From contig OX597818.1 of NCBI GenBank assembly GCA_951406725.2, positions 74,276,001 through 74,340,000 of the forward strand: a stretch of DNA of 64,000 bases. Reading direction: 5' to 3'. The position numbers and the translations under genes are program-made. Shown piece by piece: positions 18,079 through 35,865 of this stretch; position 1 is the first letter of the stretch; each line of letters opens with the position of its first letter. The DNA comes from Octopus vulgaris. Taxonomy: Eukaryota. The notes under the pieces are model-generated. The model did not search any database, was not told the DNA's origin, and saw only the letters and a list, made by a program, of their open reading frames with translations.

Positions 18079-18125
18079 TGTATGTATGTATATGTATATA
18101 GATAGATATAGATAGATATTTATAT

Positions 18126-19728
18126 TGTTGCATTTGGGGATTGTCATGTTGCCAGTTTAGCCAATAAAAACACACGCACTATATATTTGGTGTTCATTTG
18201 CTTCAACTTTATTTTATGTTAATCATATTTCAGCCACAGTTCTTTCGTCACACTTTTGTGACCTCATCAGTGGTCCTTTGCATTTTTATATCTTTTCTTT
18301 GGGGATGGTGATGGAGTCTTTCCTTACTAATGATCAGTCATTTTGTATCCCTACTCTATGTCTCTTTATTTGTGCATGCGTATACCCCTATGTGCCTGTA
18401 TTATTTTATTTTATTTATTTTATTAATGTAGATAGTTATTTAATTCAAATTTGTTTATTTGTGTATTGTATTATATTATATTCATATTGTTATCAGTTTA
18501 TGAGGATTTTATTCTGTCATAAGATGTGGTGTGTTGTGGGGGTACTAGTGTTCCATTCTAGTTTCCTATTCATGCTAGGTTTATCTTCTATTATGTGTGT
18601 AGCTTCTGTAATTTGTCTAAGCGTTGCGTCTGTTCTATGTGTGGACAAGATTTTAACTTTTATGTTGTTGAGCAAGCCCCCATGTTCCTGTTCGGCGTGC
18701 TGGTACAGAACCAGAGAGCTCTTCTCTTCCTTTAGTTCCCTCCAATGCTCATTTATCCACTCTCCTATGCTGCGTGCTGTTTCCCCTAGTTCGTCATTGT
18801 CTTGTTACTGCACCGTCCCTCTGTACATCTTATACTATAGACTACATTCCTGGCTTTACAGTTTCTTTCTGGGCTAAATCTACATACAGCACAGTTCTAT
18901 CAGTACAGAGTATTCTATCTAAATGGTATGTTCTACCCATTAGAGATTTCGTAGGGTTTCCTAGCATCTCTACAACCTTAATTCTTAGCTTAAGTTTTTC
19001 TAGGGCCCTTATAAAGCGGTACGCAGTTCGCCTTTAGGGGTGATGTCGACGAACATGACACTGGCTATCGTACCATGAGTTGGTCTTCCCTATTTTCTTC
19101 TTAGTCCTTTCAATGGTGTTCCATGACTTGCTCCTACAGAGTCGGAAAATCCCATTCCAATCGTTACGTATGACAGTTTCAAATTTCCTCGTCGCTCCTT
19201 TGTATAATCTGATCCTTTCTCTTTGCCTGTATCCTGAGAACTGCATGCGGTGAACGAAATGTTGTATGTGTCACTTTAACTCTGGAGGGTCGCACATGTG
19301 GGACACATTTCTCATTACTCTGACGAGGTCTGCCATCAATATATTGAATTTGGCATTGTACGCGATAGCTGAGTTCCGGTGGATCAGGTATTCAGTTTCC
19401 AGCCAGAGTTCTGTATCTATTGCTGGTAGTCTATGGTTAGGGTGTTTCGTAGGGTAGTCTATCGAAACCTTAATACTCTGGTGGATGGAGTTAGCTATTT
19501 GCTGGATGCTCTCCATAGTATTAGTTTCTATTTCTTTTTCAAGAGTACTCTCTTGTGGGGGTGCATTTACTACTACGTTGATATCATCGACATAGCGGGA
19601 GTATATGTTCATGAATATGAAGTTCTTTGTCGGGTGTTCTTTAAGCCTTTTGTCCCACCTTATCATGAAAAGGTTGGCGTGTGTTTTTATTGGCTAAACT
19701 GGCAACATGACCGTCCCCAAATACAACA
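18126..19728 (-). mobile_element. Penelope-like element, 5'-truncated: RT C-terminal part, GIY-YIG, pLTR hammerhead (18234-18273), inverted 52-bp terminal copy
   Basis: ORF 19271-19666 has YSRYVDD and LPAIDTELW. Downstream GETARSIGEWINEH...RQITEA...MNRKLEW. CTGATGA g gtcaca aaag tgtgac GAAA. 18126-18177 is the reverse complement of 19677-19728. Confidence 0.9.
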
Positions 19729-33559: not shown

Positions 33560-33916
33560 TATGCTGGAACACCGCTTTTAGTCGAACACATCAAAGTCAA
33601 GACTTATTCTTTCTAAGTCTAGTACTTGTTCTATCGGCCACGTTTCCCGAAGCGCTAATTTACGGCGGCTTAAACACACATCGATTGTGGACAAACACAG
33701 ACACACAAATACATAAACACAGACACAGATACACAGACACAAACACACACACACACAGACACACACACACACATACGCACACACACATATGTATAGGACG
33801 GGCTTCTTTCAGCATCCATCTACCAAATCCACTCTCTAAGCTTTGGTTGGCCAGAGATTATAGTAGAAGACACTTGCTGAAGGTGCCACGCAGAGGGGCT
33901 GAACCCAGAACCATAT
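33560..33916 (-). mobile_element. Abundant SINE, diverged copy, head cut off at the adjacent PLE
   Basis: Family body and tail with an internal CA repeat. Confidence 0.75.
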
Positions 33917-34507
33917 GACGATGAGTTAACTATAGCTAACTTCTTAGATATTACTCTTAATTTGCAAAATAACTCATACTTCCCATATCACAAACCTTCC
34001 ACCAATCTCAAGTATATTAGTCCTTCCAGTAATCACGCTAGGGCAATTACTAAGAATTCAGTTAAAAACATTTCAGTTCGATTGTCTAAATTATCCGCCA
34101 ATGTTGACATTTTTAACGACAAGGCAGAATTTATAATTCTGCCTTAGTTAAAGCAGGGAATAAAGAAAAAGTTACATACATTGATTCTGCTCAATCTCAT
34201 CCTTCATCTACTGTTCAAGACAAGAAATCTAGTTGTAATAAGAAGTATGATTTTAATTCTAATATTGTAAACAGCACAAAACATAAAATTCCTTTACGGG
34301 TTAAGGGGATCAAGCATTATTTAAGCCCATTTTTTTAAGTCTAGAGGAATTTCACCGTTCTTTAAAGATAGTACCACTTATAATTTGATTGTTACTAGGA
34401 AAACTGTCTAGTTTGTTATTCCGTAAGAAAAACAAATTAAATCTAATCTTCCTTTGTAGTTCCATGAAGTGGTTGGTAAGAACTTTCCAAAAAATTCTAG
34501 ATATTAC

Positions 34508-34830
34508 GGAGATGTACTTGCATAGCAAGTGATTTGGTCTGAGATCGTGTGCTGAAACGAAAACAATAGCAGCGTGGAAGGTGTTTGTAAGCCATTTAAG
34601 AAACACACAAAAGCCTTTCGATTCCCTTCAACATTTAAGTTTAATTTGTCAAAATATTTTCGTCGCTATCAGACCACGACCTGTTCACTGATAAGATTTT
34701 TGTCAGTGAACAGGTCGTGGTCTTATAGCGACGAAAATATTTTGACAAATTAAACTTAAATGTTGAAGGGAATCGAAAGGCTTTTGTGTGTTTCTTAAAT
34801 GGCTTACAAACACCTTCCATGCTGCAATTG
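34508..34830. mobile_element. Palindromic insertion with a 12-bp target-site duplication and two back-to-back G3-C8 hammerheads
   Basis: tctagatattac at 34496-34507 and 34831-34842. Arms about 34564-34695 and 34700-34831. Confidence 0.85.
34699..34749 (+). ncRNA. Type I hammerhead motif with swapped G3-C8 core pair (mirror copy at 34645-34695 on -)
   Basis: tttgtca GTGAACA g gtcg..cgac GAAA atat TT tgacaaa. Confidence 0.75.
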
Positions 34831-35008
34831 TCTAGATATTACTGAATTATTAATTCTCATATAGAGTTGCCTTCTCCATCACAAAGAATCTTTCACAAAT
34901 TATATCTTCTCATAATATCAGTCTGCTAAATAAAATTTCATTTTCTGGGAGTTTCAACATTAATTTTGTTAATTCCACCCTTCACATAATAATAATAATA
35001 ATAATAAT

Positions 35009-35066
<58 letters not shown>

Positions 35067-35077
35067 GCAATAAAAAC

Positions 35078-35509
35078 ATGGTTTTGATCTCTGAGGACAA
35101 CCCCAACATAATTAAATTTATGTCTAATAATTCTAAGATCAAGAATTCTATATACCAATGTAAAATTTCTTGCGGTACCGATGTCTACTTCTACATTGGC
35201 GCAACCTCTTCCCAGTTATCTAAGAGAATTTCCAATCATTATTCTTCATTTAGGGATAGCAGTAAACGTCATAGCACTGGGCTAAGTAAATTGGTTTGGT
35301 ATCTTAAAAACAACAATAAGGATTTTAAGTTAGATTGGTTCATCATGTCCATATCTTTACCTTACGATAAGGGCAAAGGATTTTGTAACATTTGCAACTC
35401 TGAATTCTTCCATATACTCTTCTCTAAGAATCACCTTGTTAACACACTTATAGAGCGATCTTACAAATGTAAGCACTGGCAGAAACATACCTTTAGCTCA
35501 TATAAGTGA
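35078..35509 (+). pseudogene. GIY-YIG endonuclease domain of the PLE
   Basis: SIYQCKI...FYIGAT...KRISNH..SFR..STGLSKLVW.LK..CNICNSE..KCKH. Confidence 0.9.
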
Positions 35510-35782: not shown

Positions 35783-35865
35783 CTTTCCTGATGAGAAGAT
35801 TGCATTTTACACCGTTTATTCCTTTGGAATAAAACCAATGTTGTCTTCGAAACATATGTCGAAAG
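35783..35865 (+). ncRNA. Type I hammerhead ribozyme motif, canonical, in PLE pLTR
   Basis: ctttc CTGATGA gaagat...gtcttc GAAA catatg TC gaaag. Predicted cleavage after C35860. Confidence 0.9.

What the first reader, a model, noticed from the sequence alone, without database searches (positions are those of the whole stretch)
34496..34842. Palindromic insertion with two back-to-back hammerheads carrying a swapped G3-C8 core pair
Seen: a 323-bp insert with a perfect 12-bp TSD inside a PLE. Each of its two arms (about 132 bp) reads GUGAACA...GAAA-AUAU-UU. The right arm has a 7-bp helix I, a gtcg/cgac helix II and a palindromic AAUAUU helix III. Established: C3 and G8 form a tertiary Watson-Crick pair, and compensatory swaps partly rescue cleavage in vitro. 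Inference: this is a natural G3-C8 hammerhead that standard CUGAnGA searches would miss. The two arms come from one duplication, so they are not independent evidence. Either strand's transcript would hold one ribozyme plus its antisense.
Basis: partly seen in the sequence, partly recalled or inferred. Interest (0 to 1): 0.85.

Follow-up and report, generated by a model that had tools for sequence, protein, structure and literature searches.

The report
Core-swapped hammerhead in octopus retrotransposon
A jumping-gene family with thousands of copies in this octopus genome carries a hammerhead-ribozyme motif whose two paired core letters are swapped relative to its nearest relatives; it is predicted to fold like a ribozyme, its cutting is untested and likely slow, and the back-to-back arrangement seen here is the family's ordinary way of inserting.

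Summary
Observation confirmed. The 323-bp insert sits between a true 12-bp target duplication and consists of two head-to-head pieces of the pseudo-LTR of an autonomous Penelope-like element (PLE; RT plus GIY-YIG). G3-C8 is the family's fixed state: 7,391 exact motif matches, 78 of 87 independently sampled arms, none C3-G8. Its sister and outgroup PLEs carry C3-G8 or U3-A8 at the same place, so the swap is derived and keeps the pair. The palindrome is not special: 47 of 83 sampled loci are head-to-head, and 45 of those 47 pair one long 'tail' end with one short end. At this locus a 132-bp hairpin is predicted to bury the motif. Cleavage is untested and probably slow or dispensable: 109 of 131 arms span the cut site and only 1 starts there. 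A young sister family expanded with A9C, and a relative has G12A. I found no natural G3-C8 hammerhead in the papers I could search, but two key papers were not held. This scan noted G3-C8 candidates before, in two other genomes (unchecked). New variant of a known kind; interest 0.5.

The parts
34496..34507 (+). Left copy of 12-bp target-site duplication; its last 5 nt also match the element's 3' end (microhomology)
34508..34562 (-). 55-nt PLE 'tail': stretch between the two inferred reverse-transcription start sites, present on this arm only
34508..34694 (-). Left arm: pLTR fragment in element sense on the minus strand, from helix I to the long 3' end (matches L041 1828-2019, 94%)
34645..34694 (-). 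Left hammerhead motif, G3 at 34688, C8 at 34683; helix I weakened by a mismatch
34695..34830 (+). Right arm: pLTR fragment in element sense, ending at the short 3' end (matches L041 1823-1959, 93%)
34699..34749 (+). Right hammerhead motif: helix I 34699-705/34743-749; core G3(34706)-U-G-A-A-C8(34711)-A9; extra G 34713; helix II 34714-18/34728-32; G12-A13-A14 34733-35; palindromic AAUAUU 34736-41; U17 34742 (predicted cut 3' of it)
34799..34830 (+). Inferred start (ATG) and first codons of the parent ORF, truncated at the short RT start site
   Evidence: inference from L092, where the element continues past the tail into the ORF
34831..34842 (+). Right copy of the 12-bp target-site duplication
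33881..35509 (+). Decayed host PLE of another family (RT-thumb-like fragment 33881-34147; GIY-YIG-like fragment ending at 35509) into which the insert landed
   Evidence: motifs read by eye; no PLE-related Pfam hit; host copies
35783..35865 (+). Host PLE's own canonical C3-G8 hammerhead (C3 at 35788, long loop II, ACAUAUGU helix III, C17)

Best explanation
The insert is two head-to-head copies of the pseudo-LTR end of an autonomous Penelope-like retrotransposon, whose family-wide hammerhead motif has a fixed G3-C8 core pair that likely keeps the fold and would cut slowly, only as a dimer or with the element's protein, while at this locus it is predicted to be buried in a long hairpin. Insertion mechanism (inferred): the element's protein nicks both target strands 12 nt apart. 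Each 3' end primes reverse transcription inside uncut element RNA, one at the far (tail) start site helped by 5-nt microhomology and the other at the near start site 55 nt upstream. The two cDNAs run toward the RNA 5' end just upstream of the hammerhead and are joined head to head. Cleavage is not needed for insertion. Shown: family, parent ORF, fixed swap, phylogenetic polarity, end statistics, TSD. Inferred: fold, two-ended priming, residual activity.
For: Fixed swap: 7,391 exact matches to the G3-C8 motif (control 0) versus 14 for the C3-G8 version (control 1). All 10 of those 14 that I inspected are not this family. In samples picked without using the core, 24 of 30 loci and 78 of 87 arms are G3-C8 and none is C3-G8. 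Parent: the motif lies about 1 kb behind an 839-aa open RT + Zn-linker + GIY-YIG frame (L091). Polarity: on the protein tree the family is sister (100%) to L134/window-18k, both C3-G8. That pair groups apart from relatives with C3-G8 (L151, L152, L155, L157, L161) or U3-A8 (L150, L153), all with the motif at the same place: three Watson-Crick pair types at 3-8. Helices I and II are predicted at 0.99 (II) and mostly >0.9 (I) in L041 and L091. Subfamily differences fall in loop II, 0 of 18 core positions. Ends: 3' ends are bimodal, 56 short and 74 long of 131; 45 of 47 head-to-head pairs have one of each; the TSD is mostly 12-14 bp outside microsatellites. Frangieh 2024 (PMC11167929): a purified PLE protein cuts and extends both strands and starts RT at two internal sites that define the tail. 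Its hammerhead needs the protein, the engineered C3G/G8C double mutant partly rescues cleavage, and hammerhead mutants do not affect insertion.
Against: No cleavage data. The enrichment of subfamily changes outside the core is not significant (Fisher p=0.13 core, 0.14 core plus helices). Close relatives carry core changes expected to damage catalysis yet multiplied: C9 in all 20 loci of the young sister family and 87 of the first 100 of 4,459 matches, A12 in L157-L160. So residual activity is not implied by pairing alone. The monomeric three-helix form is unfavourable (-5.5 vs -13.7 kcal/mol MFE), RNAcofold did not return the ribozyme dimer as MFE, and in the window copy helix II has only 0.12 probability. 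Arkhipova 2013 (PMC3846280) offers self-priming on an antisense template as another route to head-to-head structures. A first tree with two distant RT rows misplaced them inside the family; they were dropped.
Confidence: 0.58

Rival explanations
1. Catalytically dead hammerhead descendant: the fold (or only helices I and II) is kept as a structural signal for the element's protein, splicing or translation, or simply inherited; G3-C8 was fixed under relaxed selection and never cuts.
For: 109 of 131 arms span the predicted cut and 1 starts at it. A9C sister family and G12A relatives proliferate. A re-amplified palindromic master lacks G3-U4-G5 in one arm (7 of 83 loci). Frangieh 2024 found no RNA reads ending at the cut site and no need for cleavage.
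Against: Both changed positions restore a Watson-Crick tertiary pair that matters only in the active fold. 3-8 varies as C-G, U-A and G-C across the clade, and L151 swaps 15.1-16.1 to U-A. Every other catalytic position is intact.
Confidence: 0.3
2. Efficient natural ribozyme that cuts the element RNA in vivo and defines unit-length or circular transcripts.
For: Full catalytic complement with strong helix I (7 bp) and II (5 bp). Tandem 172-bp units holding the motif exist at L008, an arrangement that would allow dimers. Cut RNA might be religated or simply not be used as template.
Against: No pile-up of 5' ends at the cut site (1 of 131 at 1871; 8 within 1866-1878), while 59 of 131 end at 1808-1819, upstream of helix I. 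Minimal PLE hammerheads cut poorly even with a canonical core (PMC4209133).
Confidence: 0.1
3. Chance resemblance, copy-specific decay of a canonical core, or an assembly artefact / foldback DNA element.
For: Rfam gives no hammerhead match. Palindromes can be assembly artefacts.
Against: Fixed in thousands of copies. Present in contigs of four public runs labelled as four organisms (A-D), with opposite-strand joints and no variant at >=5% over the core. The arms differ at 4 sites and the TSD is verified. Rfam also misses the canonical motif in L152.
Confidence: 0.02

Closest known systems
Minimal type I hammerheads of Penelope-like elements (Cervera & de la Pena 2014, PMC4209133)
   Same: In the pLTR; one extra nucleotide between 9 and 10.1; G10.1-C11.1; short palindromic helix III; pairs of motifs on opposite strands 100-700 bp apart were already noted there.
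   Different: Core is G3-C8. The 56 representative rows of their Fig. S3, as extracted text, show C3-G8, U3-A8 or U3-G8 and no G3-C8. The extra nucleotide is G, where their consensus is H.
Natural U3-A8 core covariation (Perreault 2011, PMC3088659; S. mansoni Cercyon families)
   Same: Natural change of both partners of the 3-8 tertiary pair.
   Different: Needs two transversions (C>G, G>C) and puts a pyrimidine at 8; fixed in a multi-thousand-copy animal family.
Engineered C3G/G8C rescue mutant of the Anolis PAc (Poseidon) hammerhead (Frangieh 2024, PMC11167929)
   Same: Identical core swap in a PLE hammerhead; same order of hammerhead, ORF start and two RT start sites.
   Different: Here it is the natural state; activity not measured.
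Inverted-pLTR insertions with one-sided tail (Arkhipova 2013 PMC3846280; Craig 2021 PMC8557442)
   Same: Head-to-head inverted pLTRs, tail at one end only, flanking TSD.
   Different: Tail 55-59 nt rather than 30-40; here quantified as a near rule (45 of 47 pairs), with most arms ending just upstream of the hammerhead.

Membership tests
Hammerhead ribozyme (type I, minimal PLE type) | Canonical C3 and G8 identities (CUGANGA) | tested here: not met
   G3 and C8 in window and family; filed as a variant, not a canonical member
Hammerhead ribozyme (type I, minimal PLE type) | Watson-Crick complementarity of positions 3 and 8 | tested here: met
   G-C in 78 of 87 arms; C-G or U-A in relatives
Hammerhead ribozyme (type I, minimal PLE type) | U4 G5 A6 A9, G12 A13 A14, A15.1-U16.1, H17 | tested here: met
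Hammerhead ribozyme (type I, minimal PLE type) | Helices I and II, G10.1-C11.1, short palindromic helix III | tested here: met
   Predicted in L041 and L091; helix II only 0.12 probability in the window copy
Hammerhead ribozyme (type I, minimal PLE type) | Location in the pLTR of a PLE | tested here: met
Hammerhead ribozyme (type I, minimal PLE type) | Match to an Rfam hammerhead model | tested here: inconclusive
   No match, but the canonical motif in L152 is missed too
Hammerhead ribozyme (type I, minimal PLE type) | Site-specific self-cleavage after N17 | not testable with these tools
   Only assembled contigs were available
EN+ Penelope-like element | Single ORF with RT and C-terminal GIY-YIG | tested here: met
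   L091 839-aa open frame with YVDD and YIGET motifs; homologs named reverse-transcriptase-domain proteins; Pfam gave 0 families
EN+ Penelope-like element | pLTR, optional tail, inverted 5'-truncated copy, TSD | tested here: met
Nematis clade of PLEs | Zn-finger-like linker with short spacer before GIY-YIG; RT phylogeny with reference members | tested here: inconclusive
   Linker resembles Nematis rather than Neptune rows by eye; no reference sequences were in the tree
Non-LTR retrozyme | Head-to-tail tandem units each with a hammerhead | tested here: not met
   This locus is head-to-head; tandem units of the same family occur at L008

The most novel reading that the evidence does not exclude
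This is a natural, active G3-C8 hammerhead, the swap so far described as an engineered rescue mutant. It is fixed in thousands of copies within a PLE clade that explores the hammerhead core (G3-C8, U3-A8, C9, U15.1-A16.1, A12) because the element's protein assists folding and selection favours slow cutting. CUGAnGA-based surveys would then undercount PLE ribozymes, and some PLEs reported to lack one may hide a swapped core.
Probability: 0.4. Interest if true: 0.7.

Novelty: new variant of a known kind. Interest (0 to 1): 0.5.

Why it matters
It would complete natural covariation of the hammerhead's 3-8 tertiary pair, and it shows that consensus-based searches miss a whole multi-thousand-copy family. 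The G3-C8 family, its C9 sister and their canonical relatives in one genome form a ready natural series for asking whether PLE hammerheads must cut at all, which is still an open question. The 45-of-47 long-plus-short end rule is genome-scale support for two-strand, two-start-site priming in PLE insertion.

Tried and rejected
Rfam: nothing at gathering score in the window, and only microsatellite-driven noise at E<=10 in L041, L152, L134; uninformative. Pfam: 0 families for the parent ORF. Expression and cleavage: no RNA holder listed on record; the 4 runs laid were contigs, which cannot show RNA ends. Selection test core vs rest: not significant. First tree with distant RT rows L186 and L188 gave a false root and was redone without them and without the duplicate L074. 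Rejected: canonical family consensus; unique duplication event; MITE/foldback origin (arms are PLE pLTR sequence); my first label 'Neptune' (linker fits Nematis rows better). No G3-C8 motif scored >=12.5 in the 79 metagenome loci scanned; many of them lack the 3' region or are distant RTs. Literature searches for a natural G3-C8 hammerhead found none. Lunse 2017 (PMC5785218) and Hammann 2012 (PMC3334697) were not held, so prior description there is open. Earlier-findings look-ups by sequence and by genome were empty.

Full report
Observation. The sequence and repeat search confirm two 132-nt inverted arms (34563-34694, 34700-34831; 4 mismatches) inside a 323-bp insert bounded by TCTAGATATTAC at 34496-34507 and 34831-34842. 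All 11 other copies of the host element that I inspected carry this site once, so the duplication is a true TSD. The right arm fits a minimal type I hammerhead at every position except 3 and 8, which read G and C: helix I 7 bp, one extra G after A9, helix II 5 bp, AAUAUU, U17 at 34742. A descriptor allowing any Watson-Crick 3-8 pair finds it once in the window and never in 60 resampled windows. The left arm is 55 nt longer and has a damaged helix I.

What it is. The arm has 1,671 first-look candidates in G000. Exact patterns give 7,391 matches for the G3-C8 motif, 6,820 for core plus helix II and 8,427 for a downstream 26-mer; these count arms, not insertions. Walking upstream leads to an autonomous PLE. 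L091 holds an 839-aa open frame with RT, a CxxxCxxC linker and GIY-YIG motifs, and the motif lies about 1 kb behind the stop. L092 shows the element continuing past the tail into the ORF, so the order is inferred as hammerhead, start codon, two RT start sites, as in Anolis PAc. Pfam gave no family; identification rests on motifs and named homologs. The linker resembles Nematis rows of Craig 2021 by eye. A protein labelled Octopus vulgaris matches G000 at 100%, hence 'octopus'.

The swap is fixed and derived. Among 30 loci picked by upstream sequence, 24 have G3 and C8, 2 have lost C8, 2 have a disrupted core and 2 lack the region (two of the 30 are arms of one locus). Among the first 100 matches of the downstream 26-mer (83 distinct loci, 131 arms), 78 of the 87 arms covering both sites are G3-C8 and none is C3-G8. 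The canonical version of the motif has 14 matches (control 1); the 10 inspected are not this family, and several define older PLE families with a C3-G8 core and a similar tail. On an RT-EN tree of 18 rows the family is sister, at 100% support, to a young family (L134) and a copy in this window (18100-19675, minus), both C3-G8. Outside lie metagenome relatives with C3-G8 (L151, L152, L155, L157, L161) or U3-A8 (L150, L153) at the same position; no motif was recognised behind L154, L156, L165 or L170. Contigs from four public runs labelled organisms A-D hold the family with no listed variant at 5% or more over the core. Subfamily differences cluster in loop II; 0 of 18 core positions vary, but this is not significant (p=0.13).

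The palindrome is ordinary for this family. 47 of 83 loci are head-to-head. 3' ends fall in two groups about 55-60 nt apart (56 short, 74 long, 1 other), and 45 of 47 pairs have one of each; 7 of these share one junction and are not independent. TSDs outside microsatellites are mostly 12-14 bp. The young sister family shows the same pattern. Inverted pLTRs with a one-sided tail are described (Arkhipova 2013; Craig 2021). Frangieh 2024 showed that a PLE protein cuts and extends both strands from two internal start sites. I infer two-ended priming here, with 5-nt and 1-nt microhomology at the two ends. Self-priming on antisense RNA, proposed by Arkhipova 2013, is not excluded.

Does it cut? Untested. 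At this locus either strand folds into one long hairpin (-234 and -222 kcal/mol), so the motif is predicted to be buried. For the family: 109 of 131 arms span U17, one begins at the cut, and 59 begin at 1808-1819 of L041, at an AG|ATG site preceded in long copies by CTAAC and a pyrimidine tract. The templates were therefore uncut. Core changes expected to harm catalysis have multiplied in close relatives: C9 in all 20 loci of the young sister and in 87 of the first 100 of 4,459 matches, and A12 in L157-L160. Against a dead relic: both changed bases restore a pair that matters in the active fold, three pair types occur across the clade, L151 swaps 15.1-16.1 reciprocally, and the engineered C3G/G8C swap partly rescues a protein-assisted PLE hammerhead (review passage). 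I put slow, assisted cutting at 0.58, a dead or structural descendant at 0.30, efficient cutting at 0.10.

Comparison and novelty. Natural U3-A8 is known (Perreault 2011; Cervera 2014). G3-C8 appears in the papers I saw only as an engineered variant, and none of the 56 rows of Cervera's Fig. S3 has it. Ten library searches found no natural example. Lunse 2017 and Hammann 2012 could not be read and may contain one; figure panels and unread supplement parts may also bear on this. This scan noted two G3-C8 candidates in other genomes, which I did not check.

What I saw of each paper: PMC4209133, text parts 1-2 of 4 and supplement parts 1-2 of 3; PMC11167929, parts 1-2 of 4; PMC8557442, passages, a supplement search and one supplement part; bioRxiv 2026.07.22.740005, part 1 of 5; PMC3088659, PMC3846280, PMC6765202, PMC8495972, PMC6155905, PMC3884650, PMC13282606 and PMC11014351, passages only. 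Hammerhead numbering and the expectation that A9 and G12 changes harm catalysis are partly recalled (G12 also).

Verdict. Real feature, correctly described. It is a natural G3-C8 hammerhead-fold variant fixed in a large PLE family, with activity unshown, and the palindrome is a known insertion form. New variant of a known kind, interest 0.5.

Noticed in passing
L130-L149 (e.g. L134, motif about 500 nt behind the ORF); G000-wide: Young, near-identical sister PLE family (open frames up to about 1,312 aa) whose hammerhead reads CUGAUG-C-G, i.e. C at position 9; 87 of the first 100 of 4,459 matches have C9.
   Followed up: partly
L150:2497, L151:~4973, L153:~3432, L157-L160 behind the ORF: Further natural core variants in the same PLE group: U3-A8 with C9 (L150), U15.1-A16.1 swap (L151), U3-A8 (L153), A at position 12 (L157-L160).
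   Followed up: partly
L247, L284, L285, L289, L290, L293, L312: Seven of 83 loci share one identical head-to-head junction in which one arm lacks G3-U4-G5: a palindromic master that was itself re-amplified, all in TA repeats.
   Followed up: partly
L041:1795-1819 and 5' junctions of short copies: Short copies end at an AG|ATG site that looks like both a 3' splice site and an initiator; several have an extra G before the AG, possibly a reverse-transcribed cap.
   Followed up: partly
L008; L004-L007: Head-to-tail arrays of about 172-bp units each holding the G3-C8 motif (retrozyme-like), and copies inside a 5.2-kb tandem repeat.
   Followed up: no
window 18100-19675 (-); motif 18234-18273: Decayed close relative of the parent PLE with a canonical C3-G8 core but G at position 17.
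   Followed up: partly
window 35783-35865 (+): Host PLE's canonical hammerhead has a roughly 40-nt loop II that short descriptors miss; also present in 6 of the 11 other host loci fetched.
   Followed up: partly
window ~13504 (+): Weak canonical minimal-hammerhead candidate (C3-G8, 4-bp helix II, 2-bp helix I).
   Followed up: no
L181-L228: Distant RT loci from metagenomes carry two recurrent hammerhead types, one U3-A8 and one C3-G8.
   Followed up: no
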